Shown here one piece after another: positions 3,946-59,349 of a stretch of DNA of 64,000 nucleotides (within the stretch, counting starts at the first letter, position 1; every line of letters starts with the position of its first letter). The notes under the pieces are model-generated. The model made no database searches and was not told the DNA's origin. It was given only the letters and a program-made list of their open reading frames with translations. The translations under genes and the position numbers were made by a program. The DNA comes from an uncultured Bacteroidales bacterium (GTDB lineage: Bacteria > Bacteroidota > Bacteroidia > Bacteroidales > WCHB1-69): positions 1,187 to 65,186 of the forward strand of contig CAMORT010000005.1 in NCBI GenBank assembly GCA_946624065.1, written 5' to 3'.

Positions 3946-3994
3946 AAAGTCTCTCGTCTCACATCTTACGTCTAAAATCCAAAATCCAAATTTT
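3946..3994. repeat. Degenerate heptamer tandem array (7 units) starting 1 nt after the S8 peptidase stop
   Basis: aaagtct ctcgtct cacatct tacgtct aaaatcc aaaatcc aaatttt. Confidence 0.6.
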
Positions 3995-3998
3995 CCCC

Positions 3999-4006
3999 TA
4001 TCTTTG
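3999..4006 (+). promoter_or_regulatory. Bacteroidota -7 promoter box TATCTTTG (TAnnTTTG) upstream of the LRR gene
   Basis: 38 nt upstream of ATG 4044. The surrounding ttttcccctatctttgcccc is near-identical to 33341-33360. Confidence 0.5.
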
Positions 4007-4043
4007 CCCCAACGAAAATATTAACCAATAAAATACACACATC

Positions 4044-5273
4044 ATGAAAAAATTATTATTCACCACAACACTTCTTGCCCTGCTGCTGATGTGCGGCGCG
4101 GCATGGGGACAGACCTACTCTTATCCCCCGTATGACTTCACTTCCGTGAACGCCGATGGTGACACGCTGTACTACCGCATCACCTCGTCGGCAACACCCT
4201 ATACGGTGGCCGTGACGCGCTGCCACGATTCCATATACCATACCTTGCCCCATCCTCATAATGCTTCCGAGGTCGGACAGCCCGGATTTGTCTATCCTGT
4301 ATATGACTACGACTCACTCATAACCATACCGTCAAGCGTGACCCATGACGGCATTGAATATACTGTCACGACCATCGACAACGAGGCGTTCTACGAACAG
4401 AATGGCATGCACACCGTCATACTCCCGTCCACGGTTACCATCATAGGCATGGCAGCATTTTATGAATCGACCGTTGAGCATATTGTAATGCCTAATGTGA
4501 CACACATTCTCTATGGTGCTTTTACCGATGCGCTTTTGTCTTCCGTTGATATTCCCGAATGTATTGTGGAGATTGGGGAGAAGGCTTTTGAGGGCAATAC
4601 TAGGCTCCGTCAGGTTGATATACCATCCTCCATCTCGGTTCTCAGAAGTTTCGTTTTTGCTTGTTGTAACAATCTATCTGTGGTGAACCTGCCCGAGCAT
4701 CTTGTCAGCATAGAAGATAATGCCTTTTATCGCTGCCCTCAACTAAAGAAAATCACAATCCCGTCAGAAGTGGCCTATATTGGTTGTGATGCATTCACAG
4801 ATGGATATGGTACCATTGATGGTAATTATGGAGCTAATGGATATCTGGACACTTTAATTATGAAATGTGAGACTCCACCTCAAAACCACATGCCTCAATC
4901 TTTCCAAACCAACAAAGCCCTTTTGGTTATTGTTCCCTGTCACACAGCGGAAACATACCAGACGGCCCCGATTTGGTCAACCTACTCCAATTTCACCTAC
5001 CATGAGGACTGCGTGGGAGTGGAGGATTATGAGAAGGAGAATGTGCAAATGTATCCGGTCCCTTGCCATGATGTGTTGCATGTCCGAGGCGAGAGCATAA
5101 GATTTTGCCGCATAGAGGTTTACGATATGTACGGAGCCCTTGTTTTGGCAGATGAGGCACAGGACACGGAAACGGCGCTGAATGTGTCAGGGCTGCCCGC
5201 CGGAGCGTATGCCGTTGTGGTCGTGGAAGACAACGGGCAAAGACAACATGTCCGGATGGTGACCAAACAATAG
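4044..5273 (+). CDS. BspA-type leucine-rich-repeat surface protein with T9SS C-terminal sorting domain
   Basis: Signal peptide. Repeated ~23-aa units (IPSSVT.I...AF..C..L..V.LP) typical of BspA-like LRRs. C-terminus VQMYPVPCHDVLHV...LPAGAYAVVVVEDNGQRQHVRMV. Confidence 0.75.
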   Translation: MKKLLFTTTLLALLLMCGAAWGQTYSYPPYDFTSVNADGDTLYYRITSSATPYTVAVTRCHDSIYHTLPHPHNASEVGQPGFVYPVYDYDSLITIPSSVTHDGIEYTVTTIDNEAFYEQNGMHTVILPSTVTIIGMAAFYESTVEHIVMPNVTHILYGAFTDALLSSVDIPECIVEIGEKAFEGNTRLRQVDIPSSISVLRSFVFACCNNLSVVNLPEHLVSIEDNAFYRCPQLKKITIPSEVAYIGCDAFTDGYGTIDGNYGANGYLDTLIMKCETPPQNHMPQSFQTNKALLVIVPCHTAETYQTAPIWSTYSNFTYHEDCVGVEDYEKENVQMYPVPCHDVLHVRGESIRFCRIEVYDMYGALVLADEAQDTETALNVSGLPAGAYAVVVVEDNGQRQHVRMVTKQ

Positions 5274-5313
5274 GATCTTCATCGGAACCACATTCCGAAA
5301 TTTTTGTCCATAC

Positions 5314-5343
5314 GGGAGCGGGAGGAATCTTGCTCCCTTTTTT
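5314..5343 (+). terminator. Intrinsic terminator after the LRR/T9SS gene
   Basis: GGGAGC-12 nt loop-GCTCCC followed by TTTTTTG. Confidence 0.6.
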
Positions 5344-5350
5344 GTGTGTT

Positions 5351-5434
5351 TAGTCGTTGGCCTTTGGCGATAGGGCCTTGGTTTCAAGTTTCAAGTCTGA
5401 ACTCTCAATTCCCCATTTCCCATTCCTCACCCAT
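5351..5434. repeat. Degenerate heptamer array (12 units); left copy of the direct repeat flanking the Rpn gene
   Basis: tagtcgt tggcctt tggcgat agggcct tggtttc aagtttc aagtctg aactctc aattccc catttcc cattcct cacccat. Confidence 0.8.
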
Positions 5435-5569
5435 ATCCTTTTTACTCCGAAAATCGCGTAACCGCCTTAACAACAGGTTGTTAAATTTACAACTTGTGTT
5501 TCTGTATGTTGCTGTTTTTCTGGTCGAAAAAAAATTCAGGATTCCCATTGCCCGAGCAAAACAATGTGT

Positions 5570-5577
5570 TATCTTTG
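5570..5577 (+). promoter_or_regulatory. -7 box TATCTTTG upstream of the Rpn gene
   Basis: 67 nt upstream of ATG 5644. Confidence 0.45.
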
Positions 5578-5643
5578 CTCCATCGCATGGCGGCTGAGCC
5601 AGTCGAAGCCGCCTGTTAACTGTAAAAACAAAATTTTATTATT

Positions 5644-6558
5644 ATGAAAACAAACAATGTGTTTATCAATCCGTTAACGGACTTTGGTTTCAAGCGTGTC
5701 TTTGCCAGCGAGGAGAACAAGGACATCCTCATCGCGTTTCTCAACGACTGCATCTCCGATCATGTGGGGGTTATCCGTGAAATCCGGTTCCTGCCCACTG
5801 AGCATATCGGACTTGCTGAGGCGGAGAAGAAACTGATTTTCGACATCTACTGCACCAACGAGCGAGGCCAGCGGTTCATCATCGAGATGCAGCGTGCGCG
5901 TCAGGACTACTTCGCCGACAGGGTGATCACATACATCAGCCGCATCATCAGCAATGAGGCCAGTCGCGGTGCGCGTCGGTACGACATCCCGCCGGTTTAT
6001 TCGTTCAATATCCTCGACTACAACGCCCCGGAGTTTATGGGCAGGGAGGAATATTTCTGGGCGGTGCACCTGAGGGACAACCAGAACCGAATTTTTTCGA
6101 AGAAAATCATCCTGTTTTTCATGGAATTGACTAAATTTGCAGCGCAGTTTCCGGATGAGAAGTCGCCGGCCTACAAGTGGGGCTACGCCCTGAAACACAT
6201 GTCAGGGATGTCACTGAAGGACATGCCCGAGGAGGCAGGAGAGTTCCGGAAGTTGTTTGAAGTTTGTCAAATGTCAAGACTCACAACTATGGAAAAAAAT
6301 GATTACGAGAAGAGCATCTTTGAATACGAGGATGTGCAGGACGCGTTGGAATGCATGCGCCGTCACTCATTACAGGAGGGATATGAGCAGGGGATGCAAC
6401 AAGGAGTACAACAAGGAATACTACAAGGAAGGGAGGAAGCGCTCCTCCAAACTGCGCGAAACTTCTTGAATTTAGGTGTTTCTCTCGCTGATGTGGCTAA
6501 GGCTACAGGCCTGAGCGAGGAGGAGATACTTGCGCACATAGGTGAAACTGGTGAATAG
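5644..6558 (+). CDS. Rpn family recombination-promoting nuclease / PD-(D/E)XK 'putative transposase'
   Basis: N-terminus NPLTDFGFKRVFASEENKDILIAFLNDCI and IFDIYCTNERGQRFIIEMQ (D..E.Q nuclease core). C-terminal QQG-rich helix plus LADVAKATGLSEEEI, typical of this family. Confidence 0.8.
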   Translation: MKTNNVFINPLTDFGFKRVFASEENKDILIAFLNDCISDHVGVIREIRFLPTEHIGLAEAEKKLIFDIYCTNERGQRFIIEMQRARQDYFADRVITYISRIISNEASRGARRYDIPPVYSFNILDYNAPEFMGREEYFWAVHLRDNQNRIFSKKIILFFMELTKFAAQFPDEKSPAYKWGYALKHMSGMSLKDMPEEAGEFRKLFEVCQMSRLTTMEKNDYEKSIFEYEDVQDALECMRRHSLQEGYEQGMQQGVQQGILQGREEALLQTARNFLNLGVSLADVAKATGLSEEEILAHIGETGE

Positions 6559-6660
6559 TCGTTGTCTCTTGGATGTTAGTCTTTGGCGATTTGGCCTTGG
6601 TTTCAGGTTTCAAGTTTCAAGTCTGAACTCTCAATTCCCCATTTCCCATTCCTAATTATC
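6556..6660. repeat. Degenerate heptamer array (15 units); right copy of the direct repeat, starting at the Rpn stop codon
   Basis: Positions 6612-6653 are identical to 5386-5427 (42 nt). ggccttggtttc is also shared. There is one extra heptad (aggtttc) and extra 5' units. Confidence 0.8.
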
Positions 6661-6663
6661 CTT

Positions 6664-7236
6664 TCACCCCATTTCCGATCTAACCAACGGAAATCTGGCC
6701 AGTGCCTTGTATTCCGGGCCTTCTTTGAGTAGAAAACTTTGATACAGAGTAAATTCCGTAATGGGAATCTGTTGGGTGAAGTCGGGTTGAGATTGCTGGA
6801 AACGCTCCCAGAATTTCTTCTTATCTACTACGGATTTCACTCTTCCCAAGGTAATATGTGGCACGAAATTGCCGTAGGCCGTTTCAAATCCCTGCTGTGT
6901 CAACTGGTTTTCCAAATGCTGAAAGCATTGCTTGAAAAAGAAGAATTCCTCAAACCCCAACCACAACACTTCAGGGTGATAATGGCTGCCAAACACGCCC
7001 AATTTGTTCAGTTCCAAATAAAACGGAGAGTGGGATTCGCAGGTCTGCCGTAAGGCATCCTTGATGGCGGGAATCTTGCTGTCGGGGGTGGCACCCAGAA
7101 AACGCAAGGTGAGGTGGCAGACTTCGTCTTTCACCCACACAATGTCATCGTGGCGCATTTCGTACTGGAATCGGGTACGCCACGCTTTGAACGCATCGCT
7201 CAACTCAACCTTGGTGGCGATGAAGAGCCGCTTCAT
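6664..7236 (-). CDS. thpR: RNA 2',3'-cyclic phosphodiesterase (2H family, LigT/ThpR)
   Basis: Two HxT/S motifs (HLTLRFLG and HITLGR) at the expected spacing. About 190 aa. The start overlaps the DPP-IV stop (TAATG). Confidence 0.8.
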   Translation of the reverse strand: MKRLFIATKVELSDAFKAWRTRFQYEMRHDDIVWVKDEVCHLTLRFLGATPDSKIPAIKDALRQTCESHSPFYLELNKLGVFGSHYHPEVLWLGFEEFFFFKQCFQHLENQLTQQGFETAYGNFVPHITLGRVKSVVDKKKFWERFQQSQPDFTQQIPITEFTLYQSFLLKEGPEYKALARFPLVRSEMG

Positions 7237-9374: not shown

Positions 9375-9395
9375 TGTCTTATTTTTTATGAGCCG

Positions 9396-17684: not shown

Positions 17685-18689
17685 TTATTTGCTTTGCAGT
17701 TTGTCCAACCGGTTCAGACCTAAGATGGCTGGTTCAAAGTTGGTTTGTAGTTTCAGCGCCTTTTCGTAATCCTTGCGTGCCTTGTCGTATTGTCCCAAAT
17801 ATTCGTACGCCACGCCACGGTTGCACACGGAATACACAAAATCCGGATTTTCTTTGATTGCCTTTGTGAACAATTTGACGGCATCTTCATATTTGTTGAA
17901 TGGCTCATCCAAATACATGTAACCCAGATTGTTAAGAGAGGGAATGTGCTTTTCATCCAGCTGGATGGCGGTTTTGTATTCCTGCTCTGCCTCTTGGTAT
18001 TGCTCCAGATCCTGGTACAGTTTTCCCAAGTTGTAATGGATTTCCACATTGTTGGGATCCACATTCAATGCGTTTTGGTAATAGGAGGCGGCAAGGGGAT
18101 TCAAACTCTTCTGATAGAAATAACCCAGTTCCAGATAGGCCTTCACCTCTTTGGGATCTTGGTCTATAACCAATTGTAACATACGCAGATAAGCGGTAGT
18201 GTCCTGCATGTCCTTGTACATGAACGCTTTTATCAGGTATGCCTTAGGGTTGTATTTCTGTTGTTTGATGGCCTCATCCAGCGTCTCATTGCATTGCGTG
18301 AGCAGGTTCTCATGATAGAAAAGTTCTGCCAGTTTCAATCGGGCCTCATTGTTCTTCGGGTCTTTCTGAATGGCCTTTTCCAGCATTTCCTCTGCCAAGT
18401 CGGTTTCCACTTGTGCAAAATACAAGTCTGACAACATAATATAATATTTGCTGCTGTCGGGTTGCAGTTTGACAGCGGTCTGCATGTCAGCTATGCCTTT
18501 GTCCACATCTTTGTGCATGTAGTAATAGTTGGCGCGCTGGTAGTACAGTTCCGAGTTTTTGGGATGTTTGTCGATACTCTTGCACAAAGCGGCCAGCTCT
18601 TCCGGCAGGTCTGCGTATTTCTTGTTGTTATGACAGCCGCAAAGAGTGACGAGCGCGCACAACAGCAAGAGGACGATACGGTTTTTCAT
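17685..18689 (-). CDS. TPR-repeat lipoprotein
   Basis: Lipobox LVTLCGC followed by about 8 tandem TPR-like 34-aa units (YY..A..Y.....Y..A......A..L.P). Confidence 0.8.
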
Positions 18690-19756: not shown

Positions 19757-19953
19757 CGATTTTTTACCATACGAAAAAGATGTGTTTTTTAACAAACAGT
19801 TCTTAAAATGAAAATTGCAAATAATTGATTATCAGATATTAAAATCTTTTTTAAGAGATGATTGTTAAATGAAAAATGGAAGAAATTTGACCAAAACACC
19901 TGTATGAGCACGGAATTTGTTTTTTTCGCATTTTTGCAACCCATAATCTCTTT

Positions 19954-20043
19954 CACCTCTTGTACCTCTTCTACCTTCTGCACCCCTTTCACCTCCTGCA
20001 CCTATTGCACCTCTTTTACCCATTTCACCCCATTCACCCTTAT
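19954..20043. repeat. Degenerate nonamer array (10 x YACC+5 nt) running into the trmO start codon
   Basis: cacctcttg tacctcttc taccttctg caccccttt cacctcctg cacctattg cacctcttt tacccattt caccccatt cacccttat. Confidence 0.8.
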
Positions 20044-20716
20044 GACCCTCAACATTATCGCCCACGCACATAGTGAATTCCCTTCCAAGTTCGGCATTCC
20101 GCGACAGAGCGGTTTGGCCCCCTCGTTGCGCACACGCATCGTGTTTGAGCCGGAGTACCGCAATGCGGAGGCGTTGCGCGGCATAGAGGAGTTCTCGCAT
20201 TTGTGGTTGATTTGGGGGTTTTCAGAGGTGAAGCAGGAACAATGGTCGCCCACGGTGCGTCCGCCGCGACTGGGCGGCAACCGGCGTATGGGCGTGTTCG
20301 CCACGCGCTCGCCTTATCGCCCCAATCCCATTGGGCTCTCCTGTGTGGAGTTGATCGAGGTGGACCTCTCGCCGAAGAATCCCACGCTCCTGGTAGGTGG
20401 CGCCGACCTCATGGACGGCACACCCATCTACGACATCAAGCCCTATCTGTTAACCACTGATTGCCACCCGGAAGCCACTAAGGGTTTCACCCAAGTGCAT
20501 GAGCATTATCAGGTGGAGGTGGAGATTCCTGAGGAGGTTGCCAAAATAATGCCCAAGGCGACATTAGAAAAATTGCGCGAAGTGCTTGCGCAGGACCCGC
20601 GCCCCGCCTACCATGACGATGAGACCCGCGTGTATGGGTTCCCGTTTGAGGGGTATGAGGTGAAATTCTCCGTGAAGGAGGGCAAAGTGGTGGTGAAGGA
20701 GGTTAACTGGTCTTAA
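20042..20716 (+). CDS. trmO: tRNA (t6A37-N6)-methyltransferase TrmO/TsaA (YaeB family)
   Basis: Motifs FGIPRQSGL, FSHLWLIWGFS, GVFATRSPYRPNPIGLS and LMDGTPIYDIKPY. Start set at ATG 20042. The ORF is open further upstream, through a nonamer repeat. Confidence 0.85.
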   Translation: MTLNIIAHAHSEFPSKFGIPRQSGLAPSLRTRIVFEPEYRNAEALRGIEEFSHLWLIWGFSEVKQEQWSPTVRPPRLGGNRRMGVFATRSPYRPNPIGLSCVELIEVDLSPKNPTLLVGGADLMDGTPIYDIKPYLLTTDCHPEATKGFTQVHEHYQVEVEIPEEVAKIMPKATLEKLREVLAQDPRPAYHDDETRVYGFPFEGYEVKFSVKEGKVVVKEVNWS

Positions 20717-21492
20717 TCTTGCACGCAGCGGACGGATAATCCGTCGCTCTTATCGTGATTGCATCTTTCCACATCCGCGTAGTTATAATCGAGTCTGCGG
20801 CTGTATGCGTTGCAGTCATTGAACTTGTCAGCAGTCCAGAAATATGCGCGATAACTGAAATAGCTGGGACTTCCGTAGTACCCGCCAGCAGGCATGGCGG
20901 AAAAACCGGAAGCATTATTGGAATTCGGGTCGTTGCCTACTGCACAGGAGTTGGAACTGTAGCTCCAACCTGTTGTGGAGGCCATGGCTTTCGCTATGTT
21001 ACCATTGATCTCATTGCAAACATATTGGATATTGCCTCCCACATAGTTGGTCAGTTGCTTCCATTCCGCATCGCTTGGCACATGCCAGCCGTCTGGGCAT
21101 ATTCCCTGAACATGGGCAGAATTGCTGTTGGATGAAGAATTTCGGGTTGTCGCAGCCCAGTTGTATAAATAACCGTAATCACTAATGTTTGAGGGGTTGT
21201 CGTTAGGGATATATCGGTACGGGGTAGTAGAAGAAGAACCGGTGCTCAGAGGTATTTCTGTTCCATCGGCGAAATGGGTGGTTTTGAGGTTCTCCGCCAT
21301 CCATAACTGGTCGCCCATGCGAACAGCGTTGTATTGATTGCCATCAATGTCCTGAACGGCATTTTGGACAATTACAGGTGTTTCTGGATACACAGGATTG
21401 GTGCCTTCTTCACCATTCTCATGATGGCAGGCGGAGAGGCACAATGCGGCGGAAAATGTTGCCACAATCATCAAGTTCAATGCTCTTTTCAT
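20713..21492 (-). CDS. FISUMP (Fibrobacter succinogenes major paralogous) domain lipoprotein
   Basis: Lipobox ALCLSAC. Motifs DIDGNQYNAVRMGDQLWMAENL, YGYLYNW, CPDGWHVPSDAEWKQL and GFSAMPAGGY. Start at ATG 21492 with a TATTTTTG box at 21550-21557. Confidence 0.8.
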   Translation of the reverse strand: MKRALNLMIVATFSAALCLSACHHENGEEGTNPVYPETPVIVQNAVQDIDGNQYNAVRMGDQLWMAENLKTTHFADGTEIPLSTGSSSTTPYRYIPNDNPSNISDYGYLYNWAATTRNSSSNSNSAHVQGICPDGWHVPSDAEWKQLTNYVGGNIQYVCNEINGNIAKAMASTTGWSYSSNSCAVGNDPNSNNASGFSAMPAGGYYGSPSYFSYRAYFWTADKFNDCNAYSRRLDYNYADVERCNHDKSDGLSVRCVQD

Positions 21493-21663
21493 AGTTTCAG
21501 GATTTTGGTTGTTGCGATAATGATGTCCTGCCTTAGGCAGAGGAGGGTACAAAAATAATAAAATAATGCATTGATGCATCATAAAAAAAACGCTATCCCG
21601 TAGCAACTCCGAAGGGTTGCCCATTACGATGGATTTAATAACAAAAAATCCTATTTTTGCCGT

Positions 21664-22965
21664 ATGAAAAATTATTCCCAATACATTTTCATGCTCGCTC
21701 TGCTCGTGGCAACCGTTCTGGTATGCTCTGCTCAGGTGTGCGGCTGTACCGATTCGCTGGCACTCAATTTCAATCCTATGGCCACTCTTAACGATGGCAG
21801 TTGCCAATATGCCTCCACGATTATAATGCCGGTTGAGATTGGGGCGCTGGACTCGCAGTTGGGAAGTACCTCCTCTCTCTTTTATTGGGAAAATGGCTAC
21901 TGGACGAATAATGACCACAACGATAGCTGTTTATATCAAATTGACAGCACCAATGCGGAGACGATAGAAACCATCTGTTTTGATGGAATCCAGTATTATG
22001 ATATGGAAGAAATTACCCAGGACAGTCTCTATTTGTATTTCGGGGATGTGGGCAATAACAACGGCAACCGGCAAAATCTCAAAATCTTGAGAATTAGCAA
22101 GGAATCGATTTTGAATCAGGCGGTCGTAATAGATACGATATGGTTTTCCTACGAGGACCAGACGGATTTTACCTCCAACCCTCAAGCCACTGATTTTGAT
22201 TGCGAGGCGTTCATCGTTTCCGGTGACAGCATCTATATCTTCACCAAAGAGTGGGTTTCCACCCAAACTACGATTTACGCTATTCCCAAGACACCGGGTG
22301 CACACATGGCACGCCGATGCGAAACCTATAATGTGAACGGACTGATTACGGGCGCAGCGTATATGCCTGAATATAAGTTGGTTGTTCTGTGTGGTTACGA
22401 CTATGCCCCGTCGAATTTGTTGTCGTCGCTCCATCCGTTTGTTTTATTATTGTATGATTTTCAAGGAGATAGATTCTTTTCGGGCAACAAACGGCGGTTG
22501 GATTTCGATTTTTCCACAAGGGCTCAGATTGAGGCCATAGCCACTCGTAATGCTTTGAACTACTATATCACCAATGAAAGCACCTCAATTCCAGTGATGG
22601 ATCTTGTTGTTGACATTCCGCCAGCGCTCCAGCGGTTGGATTTGCGCGATTATCTTTTTCCGTATCTGAGCCGCTTTGGTGTTACAGACAATCCCGATGC
22701 TGTGCCGTCTTTGCAAAATCAGAAGGCGGACATCCGCATTTATCCCAATCCTGTCCACGACAAGATTTACATTGATTATACGCAGGATTTAGCTGGATCG
22801 GTTTATGAAATATACAATCTTAGAGGTCAGAGAGTGGCGGAAGGTTTGTTGGATGAGCATGTTATTATGTTGGACAACGGAAACCTGCCTGCCGGGCAGT
22901 ATGTTTTAACTGTTCGGGAAAACGGGAGTCTAAAATCGGTGTCTTTTATTAAAAAAAAGCAATGA
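21664..22965 (+). CDS. Secreted protein of unknown function with T9SS C-terminal sorting domain
   Basis: Signal peptide. N-terminal CGCTDSLALNFNPMATLNDGSCQY motif. C-terminus IRIYPNPVHDKIYIDY...LPAGQYVLTVRENGSLKSVSFI. Start ambiguous (21664 or Met at 21691). Confidence 0.65.
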   Translation: MKNYSQYIFMLALLVATVLVCSAQVCGCTDSLALNFNPMATLNDGSCQYASTIIMPVEIGALDSQLGSTSSLFYWENGYWTNNDHNDSCLYQIDSTNAETIETICFDGIQYYDMEEITQDSLYLYFGDVGNNNGNRQNLKILRISKESILNQAVVIDTIWFSYEDQTDFTSNPQATDFDCEAFIVSGDSIYIFTKEWVSTQTTIYAIPKTPGAHMARRCETYNVNGLITGAAYMPEYKLVVLCGYDYAPSNLLSSLHPFVLLLYDFQGDRFFSGNKRRLDFDFSTRAQIEAIATRNALNYYITNESTSIPVMDLVVDIPPALQRLDLRDYLFPYLSRFGVTDNPDAVPSLQNQKADIRIYPNPVHDKIYIDYTQDLAGSVYEIYNLRGQRVAEGLLDEHVIMLDNGNLPAGQYVLTVRENGSLKSVSFIKKKQ

Positions 22966-23062
22966 TATAGGAGTTGATCTGAAGTGACAATAATGATAGG
23001 GATTCTATCACATATTATGTTCGCGGCACCTCTGGTGCCGTACTCAAAGACTCCCCTTCTGA

Positions 23063-26950
<3,888 letters not shown>

Positions 26951-27472
26951 TTATTGCAAATACATGTCGATGAGCCCCTCCGGCGCTTGGATGTGCAGGA
27001 TGCGGTTGTCACGGTCGATGCCGGTGACGAACTGCTGGCTGGCGGGGATGAGGATCTCCTTGTCGTCGTGCGCCACCACCATGATGGGGTTGTTGCTCAC
27101 TTCCAGGAACTCGCGGCAGGTGCCGATCTCGCCCTTTTGCTCGTCTGCTACCGTAAATCCGATCACTTCGTGGAAATAGAAACGGTTGCCGGGCAGTTTG
27201 GGCAGTAGGTTCAGGGGCAGGTAAAGTTCCACGCCCACAAAGTCGCGGGCTTCGTTGGCCCCGACTCCGGCGAAGCGGATGATGAACTGGTTGCTGCCCC
27301 GATAGATGATTTCCTCAATGTTGTAAGGGATCTTCTCGCCGTCGAGATCCAGAAATACAGCGGGAAGTTCAGCGTAGTTTTCAGGGTTGTCGGTATCAAA
27401 AAAGGCACACAAACCTCCTTTCAGTCCGAAAGGTTTGGTTAGTGTGCCCAAATAGAAAAAGTCGTTTTCCAT
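26951..27472 (-). CDS. rimM: 16S rRNA processing protein RimM
   Basis: Motifs GTLTKPFGLKGGL and FYFHEVIGFTV (PRC barrel). The start overlaps the rpsP stop (TAATG), the classical rpsP-rimM order. Confidence 0.85.
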   Translation of the reverse strand: MENDFFYLGTLTKPFGLKGGLCAFFDTDNPENYAELPAVFLDLDGEKIPYNIEEIIYRGSNQFIIRFAGVGANEARDFVGVELYLPLNLLPKLPGNRFYFHEVIGFTVADEQKGEIGTCREFLEVSNNPIMVVAHDDKEILIPASQQFVTGIDRDNRILHIQAPEGLIDMYLQ

Positions 27473-33816: not shown

Positions 33817-33879
33817 TACCATGTTCACCCCATTCTCCTCCTTTACCAACGTCACCTCATGCACCCATTTCACCACCTC
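33817..33879. repeat. Degenerate nonamer array (7 x YACC+5 nt) between convergent stop codons
   Basis: taccatgtt caccccatt ctcctcctt taccaacgt cacctcatg cacccattt caccacctc. The last unit touches the ABC exporter stop. Confidence 0.7.
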
Positions 33880-44342: not shown

Positions 44343-44353
44343 CTTTCGTTTTG

Positions 44354-44427
44354 CGCTCCCTCAAGGACTTGAACCTTGGACCCTCTGATTAACAGTCAGA
44401 TGCTCTAACCAACTGAGCTAAGGAAGC
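44354..44427 (-). tRNA. tRNA-Asn (anticodon GTT)
   Basis: Manual fold. Acceptor GCTTCCT/AGGGAGC (one G-U), D-arm GCTC-AGTTGGTTA-GAGC, anticodon arm TCTGA-CTGTTAA-TCAGA, T-arm CAAGG-TTCAAGT-CCTTG. 74 nt, CCA not encoded. Confidence 0.9.
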
Positions 44428-45444: not shown

Positions 45445-45452
45445 TGTGGCGG

Positions 45453-45554
45453 TTAGCCATTAGCAATTGGCTATTAGCCGTTAGCCAATAGCCAATAGTT
45501 CATAGTCATAGTTCATAGTCATAGTTCATAGTCATAGTTCATAGTTCAAATTCC
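45453..45554. repeat. Degenerate heptamer/hexamer array (15 units) filling the yitT-ispE intergenic region
   Basis: ttagcca ttagcaa ttggcta ttagccg ttagcca atagcca atagttc atagtc atagttc atagtc atagttc atagtc atagttc atagttc aaattcc. Confidence 0.85.
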
Positions 45555-45561
45555 CCTCCCC

Positions 45562-46332
45562 ATGCCCACCTCCCTCGTCAATTGCAAAATTAACCTCGGA
45601 CTGAACATTATCCGAAAACGGGATGACGGGTTCCACGATTTGCAAACCGTGTTCTATCCTACGGATGCGTTTTCCGACCTTTTGTCTTTGGAACCGATTG
45701 CTGGTGGGCTTGAGTTTGTATGCGACAGTGCGCAAGATATCGGTCCGGACAGCGACAATCTTTGTGTGAAGGCATTTCGATTGCTGGAGCGCGATTTCGG
45801 TGTTCAGGGTGTGCGTCTCCGTTTGGAGAAGCATATCCCTACCGGTGCGGGTCTGGGTGGCGGTTCCGCCGATGCGGCGTTTGTGCTGAAAATGCTGACT
45901 GAACAGTTTAAATTACCCTTGGATAATGTGGACCTCAAGCAATATGCCGCGCAACTCGGCAGTGATGTGCCGTTTTTCATCGACAACAAACCGGCATTCG
46001 CCGAAGGAAGAGGCGAGATAATGACGCCCGTTGACCTGGATCTTTCCGCATACAATATTATTATTGAAAAACCGGAGGTGTCGGTTTCCACGCGCGAGGC
46101 CTACGCGCATGTGCGCCCACACGAGTCCGATGTGAACTTCGCGGAAGTGGTGCACAATGTGCCCGTGCACGAGTGGAAAAAGTATCTCTATAATGATTTC
46201 GAGGATTCGGTTTTCCCAAAATATCCCCAAATTGCGGAAATCAAACGCAAGTTTTACGAATCAGGCGCTTTCTACGCCGCCATGTCGGGTAGCGGCTCGG
46301 CAGTGTTCGGAATCTTTCCGAAAGCACGCTAA
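45562..46332 (+). CDS. ispE: 4-(cytidine 5'-diphospho)-2-C-methyl-D-erythritol kinase
   Basis: KINLGLNIIRKRDDGFHDL and the GHMP kinase motif PTGAGLGGGSADAA. Confidence 0.9.
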   Translation: MPTSLVNCKINLGLNIIRKRDDGFHDLQTVFYPTDAFSDLLSLEPIAGGLEFVCDSAQDIGPDSDNLCVKAFRLLERDFGVQGVRLRLEKHIPTGAGLGGGSADAAFVLKMLTEQFKLPLDNVDLKQYAAQLGSDVPFFIDNKPAFAEGRGEIMTPVDLDLSAYNIIIEKPEVSVSTREAYAHVRPHESDVNFAEVVHNVPVHEWKKYLYNDFEDSVFPKYPQIAEIKRKFYESGAFYAAMSGSGSAVFGIFPKAR

Positions 46333-52817: not shown

Positions 52818-52915
52818 CCCAGTAAAGACGCGATTTATCGCGTCTCCACCAGTAAAGACGCACGGTCGTGCGTCTCAACAAAAAAAACGACCGTGCGTCT
52901 CAACAAAAAAATAAG
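52818..52915. repeat. Tandem ~30-nt repeats, each carrying a perfect 8-9 bp hairpin, plus a 25-nt partial copy
   Basis: cagtaaAGACGCGATttATCGCGTCTccac / cagtaaAGACGCACGgtCGTGCGTCTcaac / aaaaaaaacgaccgtgcgtctcaac aaaaaaat. Confidence 0.75.
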
Positions 52916-53410: not shown

Positions 53411-53411
53411 G

Positions 53412-54711: not shown

Positions 54712-54810
54712 TCTTTCATTTTTCCCCTCCTCTTTTCCTCTCCTCTTTTTATACACAATTCCCTGTTTAAAAACAAATTGCGTTGTCGGATACGCTAAAA
54801 GCGGAAAACG

Positions 54811-54818
54811 TATTTTTG
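54811..54818 (+). promoter_or_regulatory. -7 box TATTTTTG upstream of ddl
   Basis: 25 nt upstream of ATG 54844. Confidence 0.5.
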
Positions 54819-54843
54819 CGCAACTTGATAAAATTGTGTGATT

Positions 54844-55836
54844 ATGTATAATGTTGCCGTAATAGCCGGTGGAGATTCCGGCGAATATGAAATCTCCTTG
54901 AAAACAGCCGATAACATCTTCAATCAGCTGGACAAGAGTTTGTTCAACCCTTACCTGATCCATTTCAGAGGTGCTGACTGGCATTATACCGATGAGAACG
55001 GGAATGTTTGCCAAGTGGACAAGAACGATTTCTCCATTACCGTACATGGAGAAAAAATCAAGTTTGACGCAGCGTTCATAGCCATCCACGGTACGCCCGG
55101 TGAGAATGGTCGTCTGCAGGCCTATTTTGAATTGGTGGGACAGCCTTATACGGGTTGTGGGGTGTTCTGCTCCGCACTGACATTCAACAAATACTATTGC
55201 AATCTGGCGGTGGCCGGTTTCGGTGTGCCCATCTCGCCCTCGTTGCATTTTTACAATTCCGACCCTATTGATTATGAGCAGATTGAGTCTGTTTGTGGTT
55301 ATCCTTGCTTTGTCAAGGCGTGTAACTCTGGTTCCAGCGTGGGGGTCACGAAAGTGCACAACAGAAGTGAGGTTGACCAAGCCTTTGCGGAAGCGTTCAA
55401 ATATGACAACCAACTGATGGTGGAGAAGTTTGTGCGCGGCCGCGAGTTTACCTGCGGGGTTACCTCCGTGTATGGCGCTCCCCGTGTGCTTGCGGTAACC
55501 GAGGTGGTGGCCAGCAACGAATTCTATGACTACAACGCCAAATATACCGCCGTGGGACACAAACTCATCACACCTGCGGATCTTCCTGCTGAAATGACCC
55601 AAAAGTTGAGCGATTACGCCGTTCAGATTTTCCATAATCTTGACTGTCACGGTGTGGTGCGCATTGATTTCATTGTTTCAGAGGACGATGGCGTGCCTTA
55701 TTTCCTGGAGGTGAACACCATCCCCGGACAAACCGCTTTGAGCATCGTACCGGGTCAGGTTGAATATAATAAATTGGATATTAAAGAGTTTTATACAAAG
55801 ATGGTGATGGAAGCCCTGACATTTAAGAAAGGGTGA
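54844..55836 (+). CDS. ddl: D-alanine--D-alanine ligase
   Basis: VAVIAGGDSGEYEISLKTA, IAIHGTPGENGRLQ, the ATP-grasp fold, and FLEVNTIPGQT. Confidence 0.92.
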   Translation: MYNVAVIAGGDSGEYEISLKTADNIFNQLDKSLFNPYLIHFRGADWHYTDENGNVCQVDKNDFSITVHGEKIKFDAAFIAIHGTPGENGRLQAYFELVGQPYTGCGVFCSALTFNKYYCNLAVAGFGVPISPSLHFYNSDPIDYEQIESVCGYPCFVKACNSGSSVGVTKVHNRSEVDQAFAEAFKYDNQLMVEKFVRGREFTCGVTSVYGAPRVLAVTEVVASNEFYDYNAKYTAVGHKLITPADLPAEMTQKLSDYAVQIFHNLDCHGVVRIDFIVSEDDGVPYFLEVNTIPGQTALSIVPGQVEYNKLDIKEFYTKMVMEALTFKKG

Positions 55837-55943
55837 AAGGTGAACGGTGCATGGTACACGGTACACGGTGAAGGGTGAAAGGTGCACGGTACACGGTGAA
55901 GGGTACACGGAGAACGGTAAAAGGTGCACGGTGCACGAGAAAT
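55832..55943. repeat. Degenerate heptamer array (16 x GGTRMAN) starting on the ddl stop codon
   Basis: ggtgaaa ggtgaac ggtgcat ggtacac ggtacac ggtgaag ggtgaaa ggtgcac ggtacac ggtgaag ggtacac ggagaac ggtaaaa ggtgcac ggtgcac gagaaat. Confidence 0.9.
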
Positions 55944-55998
55944 GGGTTGGAGGAATTGTAGAAATGTCATTCGATGGTGTTTTATTCTCAAAAAATCA

Positions 55999-57189: not shown

Positions 57190-57200
57190 AATCAAATGAT

Positions 57201-58307
57201 ATGAAACGAATATTTTGTCTTATAATGGTTTTTGCGGCGGTTCTTATGGTGTGGGGACAACCCGTGCCCGAAAAAGTTATCCGCGACTATGTCGATACGC
57301 ATAAAGGACTGGCTGTTCAGGAGATGGAGGCATATAAGATTCCGGCCAGTATCACCTTGGCACAAGCCATCTATGCTTCCAAAGCGGGCACGAATCGAGT
57401 GGCAAAGGAGGCCAACAACCATTTCGGGATCACTTGCCATGCCAACGAGTGGGTGGGCGACACCTATTATGAAACGGAGGACCGCAGTCCCGACCATTGT
57501 TATCGGAAATATGCGGATGTGGAAAATTCCTACCGCGACCATTCGCTGTTTTTGGCAAAACGCCCCCGTTACGCCTCGCTGTTTGAACTGCCGATCACGG
57601 ATTACCGGGCTTGGGCGCGAGGCTTGAAAGAGGCAGGTTATGCGGGTAATCCGCGCTACGCCGACACGTTGATTGCCATTATTCAGAAATACGATTTGGC
57701 AAAGTTTGATGCCCTTGCGAAACCGGTCTCGGAAAAACCTGTTGGGGTAAAAGAACAGACTCAAAACCAATCTGTTGATAACCAATCGTTGTATAAGAAA
57801 GAACATGAAAATGCGGTTAAAGAGGAACCGCGTGCCCAACAAGAGGAGTCTAAAAAGCAGGTGGAACCTGTTGATTTTCCAAAAACCACTCCGAGAACAG
57901 TGGACGATGTGCATGTGTTTGTGCTTGAATCTGGCAAAGTGCCTTTCAAGCAAGCGTATTATCCTTATACGAAACGAGCTGTGTATGAAAATAATAAGAC
58001 GAAATTCATCTTGGCGAAAGCCGGTGACACATACGCATCCTTGGCTGCTTCGTTGCAGATGACGGAGAAGAATCTGCGGATGTACAACGATGTGTACGAC
58101 AATTCCGAACCTGTGGAGGGCGAAGTGGTATATGTGGAGATGAAAAGCACGAAATCGCCAGTGGGTTATCATATTTTAAGTGAGAAAGATACCTATCATT
58201 ATGTGTCACAGTTGTATGGCGTTCAGCTCAAGATTCTGATCAAGCGTAACAGTGGGTCTTTGAAGAATTACAAAGTGGGCGACCGTATTTGTGTGGGATG
58301 TAAATAA
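57201..58307 (+). CDS. Peptidoglycan hydrolase paralog: GH73 glucosaminidase domain plus two LysM domains
   Basis: IPASITLAQAIYASKAGTNRVAKEANNHFGITC and two LysM units. Same architecture as the upstream gene. Confidence 0.8.
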   Translation: MKRIFCLIMVFAAVLMVWGQPVPEKVIRDYVDTHKGLAVQEMEAYKIPASITLAQAIYASKAGTNRVAKEANNHFGITCHANEWVGDTYYETEDRSPDHCYRKYADVENSYRDHSLFLAKRPRYASLFELPITDYRAWARGLKEAGYAGNPRYADTLIAIIQKYDLAKFDALAKPVSEKPVGVKEQTQNQSVDNQSLYKKEHENAVKEEPRAQQEESKKQVEPVDFPKTTPRTVDDVHVFVLESGKVPFKQAYYPYTKRAVYENNKTKFILAKAGDTYASLAASLQMTEKNLRMYNDVYDNSEPVEGEVVYVEMKSTKSPVGYHILSEKDTYHYVSQLYGVQLKILIKRNSGSLKNYKVGDRICVGCK

Positions 58308-58335
58308 TTGTAAAATAAAATTTTAAGCTAAGCGA

Positions 58336-59298
58336 ATGCCAAAGTCCTTATATCACTTCAATCCAAAGACACTCTCCTTTGAGAAAGTCAAGGTCAGCTT
58401 CAAGCAGATGGCCAAGCGACTGCTTTGGGTGTTTGCGAGTGGTATCGCGTTTGCGTTGGTTTTTGTGTGGATAGCGTTTTATTTTGTTGATTCCCCGAAA
58501 GTTAAAATTCTGGAAAGAGAGAATAATGAACTGAAAACGGAAGTGGAATATCTGTCCTCCCGCATTGATAAAATGTCGGATGTCTTGTACGATATTGAAG
58601 ACCGTGATGATAATGTCTATCGTACGATTTTCGAGGCGGATCCGGTGCCGACTTCAGTGCGTTACCCTTTGTTGGTGGAAGACACGCGTTTGGACAGCAT
58701 GTCGCGCTCGGAGGCGTACAACATGTTGCGTGATGCAAACAAGAAAGCAGACCAGCTGACGGTGCGCTTGGCGGCGCAGTCGAAGTCGTTAGACACCTTG
58801 GAGCGCCTTGCCACCCGGAAGTCGGAGATGCTGACTTGCATTCCGGCCATCCGTCCGCTGAAGAACATGCATGAGATCTCGTCCGGTTTCGGTCGCCGCT
58901 ACCATCCGGTATTGAAAACCCTGCGAGCGCACACGGGTGTGGATATCACTGCCCCAAAGGGCACCCCAGTGTATGCCACCGCCGACGGCACGGTTTCAGG
59001 AGAGAATCCTGGCAGCGGCTATGGCATTGTGGTGGTTCTCAATCACGGTTATTCCTATCAGACTTTGTATGCCCACCTCTCCAAAAAGGCCGTGCGACCG
59101 GGTCAGAAAGTGAAACGGGGCCAGGTTATCGGTTATGTGGGCTCCACAGGCATGGCATCCGGCTCTCATTTGCATTATGAGGTCATTAAGAACGGTCAGA
59201 AGGTGAATCCGGTCTATTATTTCAATTCGGATATCACCCCTGAAGAATATAATTCCATCTTGGAATCCTCCAAGAAGGTAAATCAAGCACTGAGTTAG
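58336..59298 (+). CDS. M23-family peptidoglycan metalloendopeptidase
   Basis: N-terminal TM helix plus coiled coil. HTGVDITAPKGTPVYATADGTV and GSTGMASGSHLHYEV. Confidence 0.88.
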   Translation: MPKSLYHFNPKTLSFEKVKVSFKQMAKRLLWVFASGIAFALVFVWIAFYFVDSPKVKILERENNELKTEVEYLSSRIDKMSDVLYDIEDRDDNVYRTIFEADPVPTSVRYPLLVEDTRLDSMSRSEAYNMLRDANKKADQLTVRLAAQSKSLDTLERLATRKSEMLTCIPAIRPLKNMHEISSGFGRRYHPVLKTLRAHTGVDITAPKGTPVYATADGTVSGENPGSGYGIVVVLNHGYSYQTLYAHLSKKAVRPGQKVKRGQVIGYVGSTGMASGSHLHYEVIKNGQKVNPVYYFNSDITPEEYNSILESSKKVNQALS

Positions 59299-59349
59299 TA
59301 GTTAATAGTTAATAGTTTAGAGTTGATAGTTGAGAGTAGAGATTATAGA
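59294..59349. repeat. Degenerate heptamer array (8 units) spanning the M23 peptidase stop and the TTG start of the SBP gene
   Basis: gttagta gttaata gttaata gtttaga gttgata gttgaga gtagaga ttataga. Confidence 0.8.

What the first reader, a model, noticed from the sequence alone, without database searches (positions are those of the whole stretch)
3946..59349. Family of degenerate 7-nt and 9-nt 'drifting' tandem arrays parked exactly at gene boundaries
By eye I find at least 9 arrays of short tandem units in which each unit differs from its neighbour by 1-2 nt, so the word gradually changes along the array.

Period-7 arrays:
- 3946-3994
- 5351-5434
- 6556-6660
- 45453-45554 (ttagcca...atagcca...atagttc)
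- 55832-55943 (16 x GGTRMAN)
- 59294-59349 (GTTRRTA)
- possibly 54712-54760

Period-9 arrays:
- 19954-20043 and 33817-33879 (YACC+5 nt)
- 25334-25432 (the complement of the same kind of word)

Placement is not random:
- The first heptad of 55832 contains the ddl TGA.
- 59294 spans the M23 TAG, and the same array contains the only possible (TTG) start of the next gene.
- 6556 starts on the Rpn TAG.
- 3946 starts 1 nt after a TGA.
- 19954 ends on the trmO ATG.
- 33817 ends on the ABC exporter stop.

Words are shared between distant loci. cacctcttgtacc at 19954-19966 compares with the reverse complement of 25397-25409, cacctcttgtgcc. cacccatttcacc occurs in both 19954 and 33817.

The arrays are not palindromic, so they are not REP/BIME-like. 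They have no spacers, so they are not CRISPR. They encode nothing obvious. I do not know a described element class that fits. Possible roles are 3'UTR or insulator elements, protein or RNA binding platforms, or products of a dedicated slippage or templated-insertion process.
Basis: seen in the sequence. Interest (0 to 1): 0.82.

Follow-up and report, generated by a model that had tools for sequence, protein, structure and literature searches.

The report
Variable 7- and 9-base tandem repeats
The arrays are real, strain-variable short tandem repeats, mostly 7 bases per unit, that fill the tiny gaps between genes of an uncultured rumen Bacteroidales bacterium; this kind of repeat is already described in other bacteria, so this is a new example, not a new class.

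Summary
All six claimed period-7 arrays and two period-9 arrays score above every dinucleotide shuffle. Intergenic DNA is only 6.3% of the window, yet it holds six heptamer arrays where 0.02 are expected.

The arrays behave as VNTRs. In 97-99% identical strains from independent metagenome assemblies, the spacers change length in steps of one unit (9 nt; 7 or 13 nt).

In related rumen Bacteroidales species, the spacer after the ddl stop carries heptamer arrays built from different words. The words follow the ddl tree, and the stop codon usually lies inside the first units.

The exact parking at gene boundaries is mostly a result of very short ancestral spacers (TAATG overlaps or 10-25 nt). A 7-nt duplication that includes a stop codon does no harm there.

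The class is already described. It matches long simple sequence repeats with heptamer dominance (Mrazek 2007), cyanobacterial STRR, TAACTGA repeats (which include some Bacteroidetes) and the GGGNATC heptamers near stop codons.

Verdict: a new member of a known kind, most likely made by replication slippage. Two points are left open. Words are shared between loci, and GGTGAAN arrays show a sense-strand bias. Both leave a small chance of a selected function.

The parts
3949..3990 (.). Degenerate heptamer array (GTCTCNN drifting to AAAATCC). It starts 3 nt after the stop codon (TGA, ends at 3945) of the S8 peptidase/T9SS gene.
   Evidence: Score 19 against a shuffle maximum of 13; TRF finds AAAATCC x2.4; sequence read.
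5350..5427 (.). Copy A of a 78-nt spacer module that contains GTTTCAA x2.3 and ATTCCCC x2.7. It lies upstream of the PDDEXK_2/Rpn gene.
   Evidence: Direct repeat D1, 83% identical to 6576-6653. Strains without the Rpn gene carry a single copy of this type after LigT.
6576..6672 (.). Copy B of the module (GTTTCAR x3.3, ATTCCCC), running on into CCCATTTCACCCCATT-type words that contain the LigT stop codon (TGA on the minus strand, 6664-6666).
   Evidence: the word ATGGGGTGAA is at 6663-6672 on the minus strand.
19948..20041 (+). Nonamer array, about 10 units of YACCYYYTK, ending on the trmO ATG (20042). It is a non-coding leader, not part of TrmO.
   Evidence: TRF period 9/18; score 37. Length varies 154-208 nt in 9-nt steps among 11 strains. 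The TrmO domain starts 17 residues after the ATG, and the NCBI gene call is 224 aa.
25334..25432 (+). Nonamer array in the opposite orientation (CACAAAGGR, then GGTG-type units). It is in frame inside beta-galactosidase and encodes [33 protein letters not shown].
   Evidence: It varies by 9-nt steps (162/171/180) among strains. Solved GH2 structures are 40-46 residues shorter just before IAYEQF.
33817..33879 (.). Decayed YACC-N5 nonamer array between convergent genes. It abuts the ABC exporter stop codon (33879-33881, minus strand).
   Evidence: Pattern matches; word sharing with the trmO array scores 16, reached by 0 of 200 shuffles; ATGGGGTGAA at 33824-33833 on the minus strand. It fails the period-score threshold.
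45453..45548 (+). Heptamer array in two parts: a fixed, degenerate TTAGCCA part that includes a hairpin, then a perfect ATAGTTC/ATAGTC (13-nt) part. It fills 96 of the 117 nt between YitT and the GHMP kinase gene.
   Evidence: TRF. Spacer lengths are 97/110/117/124/130/143/182 nt among strains, and all the change is in the pure part. Hairpin z = -3.8.
54720..54749 (.). CT-rich repeat of period 13, just after the MbnP-like gene's stop codon and upstream of ddl.
   Evidence: TRF period 13, 94% matches; spacer is 48 or 56 nt among strains.
55829..55941 (+). About 16 heptamers of GGTRMAN. The ddl TGA (55834-55836) lies in the first unit. Higher-order periods of 21, 28 and 42 nt are present.
   Evidence: TRF; score 46. 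Spacer is 80 or 121 nt, with unit order shuffled between strains. Orthologous arrays with other words occur in related species.
59293..59354 (+). Heptamers of AGTTRRT spanning the M23 peptidase TAG (59296-59298). The array also contains the TTG start (59330) of the SBP_bac_5 lipoprotein gene.
   Evidence: TRF; score 35. Strains with 2 extra nt in the array use the TTG of the preceding unit. The ancestral junction in related species is a TAATG overlap.
63503..63534 (+). AAGGAACAA x3.6, an in-frame (KEQ)n coding repeat in the ORF that starts at 62753. It was not in the finding and is probably unrelated to the GGTG/YACC word family.
   Evidence: TRF 95% matches. The same unit occurs in L031 at 18645-18676. 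The gene is called in L011.

Best explanation
These arrays are hypervariable short tandem repeats of the kind called long simple sequence repeats (VNTRs with 5-11 nt units and heptamers dominant; the cyanobacterial examples are called STRR). The host is an uncultured rumen Bacteroidales lineage.

Shown:
- The arrays are far beyond chance, and period 7 dominates.
- They gain and lose whole units between near-identical strains. The changes sit in the purest stretch of each array, and the degenerate stretches stay fixed.
- Arrays persist at the same spacer across species, while the word changes.

Inferred mechanism:
- Slipped-strand mispairing during replication, and possibly unequal exchange, duplicates a 7-nt (less often 9- or 13-nt) segment.
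- In this compact genome the only places where such a duplication is harmless are at or just after a stop codon, in a leader, or (for 9 nt, which is 3 codons) in a tolerant protein loop.
- An array seeded on a stop codon carries that stop in every unit. Because 7 is not a multiple of 3, three units close all three reading frames.
- Point mutations followed by re-amplification of the mutated unit produce the 'drifting' word and the higher-order periods of 13, 14, 18, 21, 28 and 42 nt.

No dedicated function is needed. The side effects are these:
- Formerly overlapping gene pairs are pulled apart.
- Protein C- and N-termini change.
- Gene callers are misled.
For: Beyond chance:
- Periods 7 and 9 exceed all shuffles.
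- Intergenic DNA holds 6 heptamer arrays against 0.02 expected.
- Across 80 loci of related species (1.3 Mb), period 7 gives 33 of the 79 arrays found over periods 4-13.

Unit-step polymorphism among strains that are 97-99% identical in the flanks:
- trmO leader: 154/163/172/181/190/208 nt.
- beta-galactosidase: 162/171/180 nt.
- YitT-GHMP spacer: 97 to 182 nt in steps of 7 and 13, all within the perfect ATAGTTCATAGTC part.
- ddl spacer: 80 or 121 nt.

Higher-order periods appear in TRF.

Ancestral junctions are tiny:
- M23/SBP is a TAATG overlap in 7 array-free species.
- ddl/glucosaminidase spacers in array-free species are short, for example about 10-21 nt in L036, L041 and L043.

Stop codons:
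- Every word family that abuts a stop codon carries a stop triplet on the sense strand (GGTGAAN, AGTTAAT, TTAGCCA, ATAGTTC, TTGAAAC, GAGAATT, TAATGGA, AGTTAGC, AATTAAY).
- The gene's own stop lies inside the first units in the window and in L028, L031, L035, L045, L051 and L052/L053.

Words follow the ddl tree, so the arrays are inherited and turn over slowly.

Published descriptions agree. Heptamers are the most abundant class, units that are multiples of 3 occur inside genes, and slippage is the proposed cause. Heptamers lie within 0-50 bp of the stop on the coding strand, some overlapping it.
Against: Pure local slippage does not by itself explain four observations.
- Different loci in one genome share words. 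Pair tests reached by 0 of 200 shuffles are trmO/ABC and ddl/LigT. ATGGGGTGAA occurs at three gene boundaries, matched by 1 of 100 shuffles. AATTAAY is used at both the ddl and M23 spacers of the L027 group.
- The GGTR core appears with period 7 in the window but period 9 at the same ddl spacer in L029 and L026.
- In metagenome contigs, GGTRMAN arrays lie just after ORF stops on the GGTG strand 12 times and on the other strand once.
- The arrays survive across species despite the usual bacterial bias toward deletion.

Slippage itself was not observed. There are no expression data.
Confidence: 0.75

Rival explanations
1. The arrays are selected cis-elements in the transcripts. They would be unstructured platforms of repeated short words in 3'UTRs, operon spacers or leaders. 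Such platforms could bind an oligomeric single-strand-binding protein (S1, Csp or TRAP-like), or they could uncouple translation of adjacent genes.
For: - The arrays persist at the ddl and M23 spacers across species down to about 68% ddl protein identity to the window, with the word turning over.
- Most arrays are unstructured as RNA (z from -1.2 to +0.9).
- Related words occur at several loci of one genome.
- Period 7 or 9 with the same GGTR core resembles tolerance to spacer length.
- GGTRMAN arrays after stops show a 12:1 sense-strand bias in unrelated contigs.
- Rehm 2015 reports the same coding-strand bias, and MacGregor 2015 proposes S1, Csp or CsrA binding.
Against: - Words differ completely between loci and between sister species at the same spacer (GGTGMAN against AATTAAY at 92% ddl identity).
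- Copy number is free to vary about twofold among strains.
- Many relatives have no array at all and keep a 0-25 nt junction.
- Strand composition relative to the gene is not uniform in the window: C-rich on the sense strand after the S8 gene and before trmO, G-rich after ddl, LigT and ABC.
- No candidate binding protein was identified.
- Part of the orientation bias follows from arrays being seeded on stop codons.
Confidence: 0.13
2. The arrays are spread by a copying process: a very small mobile or templated element, or gene conversion between arrays. That would explain the same words turning up at distant loci.
For: - Words are shared between non-orthologous spacers.
- A 78-nt array-bearing module is duplicated on both sides of a strain-variable PDDEXK_2/Rpn gene.
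- GGTGAAN arrays are very widespread in metagenomes.
Against: - No inverted ends or target duplications are visible at any array.
- Array boundaries coincide with stop and start codons, not with element ends.
- Length differences are unit steps, not presence or absence of a whole array.
- No reverse transcriptase or transposase is linked to the arrays in the window.
- The module duplication is equally well explained by recombination when the Rpn cassette was inserted.
Confidence: 0.08
3. The arrays are chance low-complexity sequence or an assembly artefact.
For: Some claimed arrays are weak (3949-3990, 33817-33879), and the source is a metagenome-derived genome.
Against: - No comparable array appears in 100 whole-window shuffles, and at most 1 in any of 300 per-spacer shuffles.
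- The same arrays are recovered in dozens of independent assemblies from ENA, JGI, NCBI and Logan, with unit-step variation.
Confidence: 0.01

Closest known systems
Long simple sequence repeats (LSSR) with 5-11 nt units in prokaryotes (Mrazek, Guo and Shah 2007, as summarised in PMC4679880 and PMC4692102)
   Same: - Tandem units of 7 and 9 nt, with heptamers the most common class.
- Strong intergenic bias.
- Units that are multiples of 3 are the ones found inside genes (the beta-galactosidase and KEQ arrays).
- Slippage is the proposed cause.
- Copy number is polymorphic.
   Different: - The LSSR-rich genomes listed there are Burkholderia, cyanobacteria, actinobacteria and Xanthomonas. As recalled from my own knowledge of that literature these tend to be large genomes. 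The summaries I read do not name a rumen Bacteroidales lineage.
- The arrays here are more degenerate (71-88% matches), with a visible succession of words.
Cyanobacterial STRR, short tandemly repeated repetitive heptanucleotides (Mazel et al. 1990; Calothrix PCC 7601. The words are recalled from my own knowledge; the existence of the class is cited in PMC4692102)
   Same: - Heptanucleotide tandem arrays in non-coding DNA.
- Several word families per genome.
- The same word occurs at many loci.
- Function unknown.
   Different: The words CCCCAGT, TTGGTCA and CAACAGT never occur in tandem here. The phylum and habitat are different.
TAACTGA direct repeats of Beggiatoaceae, cyanobacteria and five Bacteroidetes (MacGregor 2015, PMC4679880)
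   Same: - Intergenic heptamer repeats within a few nt of start or stop codons.
- Stop codons occur in the unit on the forward strand.
- They are reported in Bacteroidetes, including Paludibacter, Gramella and Aequorivita, together with other heptamer repeats in the same spacers.
- Close relatives lack them and have shorter spacers.
   Different: - There are no TAACTGA tandems in the window. The nearest word, AGTTAAT, matches the complement AGTTATC at 5 of 7 positions.
- Here most arrays sit on stop codons, not directly upstream of start codons.
GGGNATC / GGGGAYT heptamer repeats of Xanthomonas and Nostoc (Rehm 2015, PMC4692102)
   Same: - G-rich heptamers spread over the genome and over-represented in non-coding DNA.
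- Variable unit number.
- Most lie 0-50 bp downstream of the stop on the coding strand, including repeats that overlap the stop codon.
   Different: - Those repeats have G3-4 tracts, prefer 4 units and form G-quadruplexes.
- GGTRMAN has only GG. Only two G4 motifs exist in the window, and they sit at array edges.
REP/BIME elements and CRISPR arrays
   Same: Repeated intergenic sequence.
   Different: - Apart from one hairpin in the 45453 array, the arrays have no palindromic units.
- There are no unique spacers between the repeats, and the units are 7-9 nt, not 24-48 nt.

Membership tests
LSSR / VNTR with 5-11 nt units | Head-to-tail tandem copies of a 5-11 nt unit, longer than chance allows | tested here: met
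   TRF. Scores exceed all shuffles for periods 7 and 9.
LSSR / VNTR with 5-11 nt units | Copy number polymorphic between closely related genomes, in whole-unit steps | tested here: met
   Steps of 9 nt at trmO and beta-galactosidase, and 7/13 nt at YitT-GHMP, in strains with 97-99% identical flanks.
LSSR / VNTR with 5-11 nt units | Heptamers are the predominant unit length; units not divisible by 3 are excluded from genes, and units divisible by 3 are tolerated in genes | tested here: met
   Period 7 gives 33 of 79 arrays in 80 related loci. All 6 heptamer arrays in the window are intergenic. The period-9 arrays at 25334 and 63503 are in frame inside ORFs.
LSSR / VNTR with 5-11 nt units | Genome-wide over-representation (an LSSR-rich genome) | not testable with these tools
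   Only the 64 kb window and roughly 20 kb loci could be fetched. The local density is about 1 array per 7 kb.
Cyanobacterial STRR | Tandem heptanucleotides of the STRR words (CCCCAGT, TTGGTCA, CAACAGT) in cyanobacteria | tested here: not met
   No tandem doublet of any STRR word. The host is Bacteroidales.
TAACTGA direct repeats | Tandem TAACTGA units, mostly just upstream of start codons | tested here: not met
   4 single TAACTGA occurrences and no tandem copies.
G-quadruplex heptamers (GGGNATC) | Four or more G3+ tracts with short loops within the array | tested here: not met
   Only 2 G4 motifs in 64 kb (20019-20048 and 45553-45574, both on the minus strand), and both lie at array edges. 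The GGTRMAN array has none.
REP/BIME | Imperfect palindromic units that fold into stem-loops | tested here: not met
   Folding z-scores range from -2.4 to +0.9 for 7 of 8 array regions. Only 45445-45500 folds well (z = -3.8).
CRISPR | Repeats of 24-48 nt separated by unique spacers of similar length | tested here: not met
   Units are 7-13 nt and contiguous.
MITE / small dispersed mobile repeats | Defined ends (terminal inverted repeats) and target-site duplication; presence or absence as a whole element | tested here: not met
   No such ends were seen. Strains differ by unit steps, not by whole-array presence or absence.
Known structured RNA families (Rfam 15) | Match to a covariance model | tested here: not met
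   Only tRNA-Asn reaches its gathering score. No match with E up to 0.5 overlaps an array.

The most novel reading that the evidence does not exclude
The GGTR-core arrays have period 7 (GGTRMAN) or period 9 (RRGGTRMAN). They lie on the sense strand at or just after stop codons, both in this lineage and in many unrelated environmental contigs. On the novel reading they are a selected 3'-end or operon-spacer element and not slippage debris. For example, they could be a spacing-tolerant platform for an oligomeric single-strand RNA or DNA binding protein. Alternatively they could be a device that breaks termination-reinitiation coupling between adjacent genes. Within-genome word sharing would then reflect co-evolution with that partner.
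Probability: 0.1. Interest if true: 0.65.

Novelty: new member of a known kind. Interest (0 to 1): 0.3.

Why it matters
The value is modest but real.
1. It extends heptamer-dominated tandem repeats to an uncultured rumen Bacteroidales clade. It also gives an unusually clear natural record, from dozens of strains and about 30 species, of how such arrays start on stop codons, expand, decay and are replaced.
2. The arrays are ready-made VNTR markers for telling strains of this rumen lineage apart in metagenomes.
3. They cause annotation errors. TrmO is called at 273-286 aa where 224 aa is correct, and start codons are placed inside arrays.
4. They alter protein ends: the ddl C-terminus, the N-terminus of the SBP lipoprotein signal peptide, and a 23-35 residue variable insert in beta-galactosidase.
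5. Why 7 nt is favoured, and why G-rich heptamers prefer the coding strand after stops, are still open questions for the whole class.

Tried and rejected
- Anti-Shine-Dalgarno mimic. The nonamer consensus CACCTCTTT is one mismatch from the usual 16S 3' end CACCUCCUU (recalled from my own knowledge), and L005 has exact copies. After allowing for rotations, both strands and the several other motifs I tried, the match is about p = 0.01 and post hoc. The orientation relative to genes is also inconsistent. I do not claim it.
- G-quadruplex. GGTRMAN lacks G3 tracts.
- Rho rut site. The C-rich strand is the sense strand only at trmO, at the gene ending at 33794, and at the S8 and LRR genes. It is the antisense strand at ddl, LigT and ABC.
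- Collagen-like Gly-X-Y coding. This applies only to the in-frame beta-galactosidase insert. The other GGT-N6 arrays are non-coding.
- Palindrome-plus-one words as restriction or methylation sites (GTGCAC, ATTAAT, GTAC). The pattern does not hold across words.
- Rfam matches, at gathering scores and at E up to 0.5: none at the arrays.
- STRR, TAACTGA and GGGNATC words: absent in tandem.
- Sigma-70 promoter and terminator scan: not run, because Bacteroidetes promoters are outside its scope.
- Literature searches for a description in Bacteroidales or rumen genomes found only the general heptamer papers.
- YitT-GHMP orthologous spacers in the species loci: tblastn found no adjacent pair, so no comparison was possible.

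Full report
WHAT THE WINDOW IS. The proteins carry T9SS sorting tails (Por_Secre_tail) and typical Bacteroidota housekeeping domains. Identical RecA, M23, YitT and LigT proteins occur on many rumen and gut metagenome contigs and in NCBI MAGs. The closest species representatives in GTDB are all 'MAG: Bacteroidales bacterium' from cattle, buffalo, goat, sheep, yak, deer and horse. The genome is compact. With a curated gene map, only 4.0 kb (6.3%) of the window is intergenic, spread over 43 spacers.

- TRF lists period-7 arrays at 45453-45548, 55827-55941 and 59292-59342, short ones at 3974-3990, 5381-5426 and 6600-6652, and period-9 arrays at 19948-20039 and 25335-25391.
- A scan that scores s[i]=s[i+p] finds arrays only at periods 7, 9, 12 and 13 with strict scoring, and none in 100 dinucleotide shuffles.
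- Scoring suited to about 70% matching recovers all six claimed heptamer arrays and two nonamer arrays above the shuffle maximum.
- Restricted to intergenic DNA, there are six heptamer arrays against 0.02 expected.
- The corrections to individual claims are listed in the observation check. The main ones: 54720-54749 has period 13; 33817-33879 is only a decayed relative; 5350-5427 and 6576-6653 are two copies of one module; 25334-25432 lies inside a gene.

THE ARRAYS ARE VNTRs. The fetched contigs are 97-99% identical to the window in the flanks. Between fixed anchors the lengths are as follows.
- trmO leader: 154, 163, 172, 181, 190 or 208 nt.
- beta-galactosidase stretch: 162, 171 or 180 nt.
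- YitT-GHMP spacer: 97, 110, 117, 124, 130, 143 or 182 nt. These are steps of 7 and of 13 (ATAGTTC plus ATAGTC).
- ddl spacer: 80 or 121 nt, with units reordered.
- M23 spacer: 70 or 72 nt.
- CT-rich tract before ddl: 48 or 56 nt.
In the YitT array the degenerate TTAGCCA half is the same in every strain, and all change is in the perfect half. This dependence on purity is what slippage predicts. The higher-order periods (13, 14, 18, 21, 28, 42) show that blocks of several units are also duplicated. Independent assemblies agree, so assembly artefact is excluded.

WHY THEY SIT 'EXACTLY' ON GENE BOUNDARIES.
- The arrays take up 43-100% of their spacers.
- In array-free relatives the M23/SBP junction is a TAATG overlap or a few nt (L044, L046, L047, L050, L051, L053, L065).
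- The ddl/glucosaminidase junction is short in array-free relatives, for example about 10-21 nt in L036, L041 and L043.
- So any array born in such a junction must touch both genes.
- Beyond that, the gene's own stop lies inside the first units in the window (gggTGAaagg) and in L028, L031, L035, L045, L051, L052 and L053.
- Every word that abuts a stop codon has a stop triplet on the sense strand.
- The simplest reading is that the seed duplication included the stop codon. That duplication is harmless, whereas a 7-nt duplication inside an ORF or in the next gene's initiation region is not. Because 7 is not a multiple of 3, three units stop all three frames.
- The M23 array also supplies TTG in successive frames. 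The window uses the TTG at 59330 (MRVEIIDN...). Strains with 2 more nt in the array use the preceding TTG (MIVERLEIIDN...). Both read into the same lipoprotein signal peptide.
- The M23 Ser codon before the stop is AGT here and TCG in array-free relatives, so the array has absorbed it without changing the protein.
- The nonamer array before trmO is a leader, not coding sequence. The ATG at 20042 gives a normal TrmO N-terminus, and NCBI calls the protein at 224 aa. Other gene callers read through the stop-free array and give 273-286 aa.
- The nonamer array in beta-galactosidase is an in-frame, strain-variable insert of 23-35 residues just before IAYEQF. Solved GH2 enzymes are 40-46 residues shorter at that point.

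EVOLUTION ACROSS SPECIES. In about 30 related species the ddl spacer has no array in roughly half of them. The others carry the following words.
- GGTGAAN: window, L028 and L031.
- GGTR-N5 nonamers behind a hairpin: L026 and L029.
- AATTAAY: L027, L030, L032, L033 and L037.
- GAGAATT: L035 and L045, degenerate in L042.
- TAATGGA/TAATTGA: L051.
- AGTTAGC: L052 and L053.
On a ddl neighbour-joining tree these words fall into subclades. The arrays are therefore inherited for long periods and their words are replaced over time. In the L027 group the end of ddl reads ggaaatggggagaaaaTGA, a decayed GGTG-type unit now inside the ORF, and it is followed by the younger AATTAAY array. Across all 80 loci, period 7 is the commonest period (33 of 79 arrays). 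By my tally of the table, 34 of 43 heptamer arrays lie mostly outside modelled ORFs, although only 12% of that sequence is non-ORF. By the same tally, 25 of the 43 are within 15 nt of a modelled stop. These ORF models are crude.

WHAT PURE SLIPPAGE DOES NOT EXPLAIN.
- Words are shared between distant loci beyond what composition gives. Scores reached by 0 of 200 shuffles: trmO against ABC, and ddl against LigT. Scores reached by 3 of 200 shuffles: trmO against beta-galactosidase, trmO against LigT, and ABC against LigT.
- ATGGGGTGAA sits at three gene boundaries in the window and at non-orthologous spacers in L026, L027 and L029.
- The L027 group uses AATTAAY, and L035 uses AGAATKN, at both the ddl and the M23 spacers.
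- The GGTR core occurs with period 7 or period 9.
The 80 loci I read have GC of 35-69% and come from soil, marine, sediment and gut samples. A few are adjacent to eukaryotic telomere repeats.
- Of 57 usable arrays, 24 had an ORF of at least 80 codons ending at the 5' edge on the GGTG strand, none had one only on the other strand, and one had both. Counting only stops that lie before the array, which removes the bias from in-array stops, the split is 12 to 1.
- Rehm 2015 reported the same coding-strand, near-stop preference for other G-rich heptamers.
These points keep a functional or copying explanation alive at low probability.

COMPARISON WITH WHAT IS KNOWN. MacGregor 2015 and Rehm 2015 summarise Mrazek 2007.
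- Some prokaryotic genomes are rich in tandem repeats with 5-11 nt units.
- Heptamers are the commonest unit length.
- Units divisible by 3 are the ones found in genes.
- Polymerase slippage is the proposed cause.
- Three heptanucleotide families were described in Calothrix in 1990.
- TAACTGA repeats occur in Beggiatoaceae, 15 cyanobacteria and 5 Bacteroidetes. They occur together with other heptamers in the same spacers, and close relatives have shorter, repeat-free spacers.
- Xanthomonas and Nostoc heptamers cluster within 0-50 bp of stops, some overlapping them.
All defining features of that class that I could test are met here. The specific word-defined families (STRR, TAACTGA, GGGNATC) are not matched. 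REP/BIME, CRISPR, MITE and Rfam families are excluded. No paper in the searchable library describes these repeats in rumen Bacteroidales.

VERDICT. The finding is real and well observed, but it is a new member of a known kind. Most likely mechanism (confidence 0.75): replication slippage seeded where a 7- or 9-nt duplication is neutral, followed by mutation and re-amplification. Shown here: non-randomness, unit-step polymorphism, inheritance with word turnover, and stop codons embedded in the units. Inferred: slippage itself and neutrality. Interest 0.3.

LIMITS.
- No whole genome could be scanned.
- There are no expression data.
- The ORF models for the species loci are crude.

Noticed in passing
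window 5274-6663 (gene 5644-6558): A PDDEXK_2 / Rpn-family 'transposase' gene is flanked by 78-nt direct repeats (5350-5427 and 6576-6653, 83% identical). Strains L106, L110, L111, L113 and L114 lack the gene and the upstream S8/LRR genes. They have a single copy of the module after LigT, followed by DUF4230 genes. This looks like a cassette inserted by recombination at an array-bearing spacer.
   Followed up: partly
window 52826-52845 and 52856-52875; L026 and L029 just after the ddl stop: Two tandem perfect 9-bp hairpins, AGACGCGAT/ATCGCGTCT and AGACGCACG/CGTGCGTCT, each preceded by CAGTAA. A similar GAGACGATGCATGCATCGTCTC palindrome follows ddl in L026 and L029. This may be a small REP-like hairpin family in this clade, separate from the tandem arrays.
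   Followed up: partly
window 19862-20041; loci L001-L010: Gene callers extend TrmO through the stop-free nonamer array, giving 273-286 aa where 224 aa is correct. The predicted protein length therefore varies between strains as an annotation artefact.
   Followed up: yes
window 25334-25432: Beta-galactosidase carries a strain-variable, low-complexity insert rich in Gly, Lys and Thr, between the TIM barrel and the small-chain domain. The variants are [12 protein letters not shown]... in the window, NTKDAKGARGTRGKGGEKGMEN in L007 and NTKGARGEWGSRGEGGEKGMGN in L005. Any effect on the enzyme is unknown.
   Followed up: partly
window 20716-23102 compared with L001-L010: Gene content between trmO and beta-galactosidase differs among strains that share an identical RecA. 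Fib_succ_major, AAA_14/DUF4143, DUF2442/DUF4160 and a 329-344 aa ORF come and go. This is a small hypervariable island.
   Followed up: no
window 62001-64000 (ORF from 62753): A low-GC stretch (36.5% against about 48% elsewhere) encodes a large protein with no Pfam match on record and a (KEQ)n repeat at 63503-63534. The same repeat unit occurs in L031.
   Followed up: no
window 44353-44427; L016 203-1420: tRNA-Asn lies upstream of the YitT gene. In strain L016 a phage-type integrase gene sits upstream of the YitT gene where other strains have a CBS-domain gene, which suggests an integration hotspot. I did not check whether the tRNA itself is the insertion point.
   Followed up: no
window 27482-27606: GC-rich repeats of period 18 and 27 lie inside the minus-strand ORF 27472-28080, a 202-aa ribosomal protein S16 with a long repetitive tail. 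This is a coding repeat unrelated to the arrays.
   Followed up: no
L125, L127, L159, L193 and others from the metagenome scan: Some GGTGCAG/GGTAAAG heptamer arrays lie next to TTTAGGG/TTAGGG runs, so they are probably eukaryotic subtelomeric satellites. The GGTRMAN pattern is therefore not specific to bacteria.
   Followed up: no
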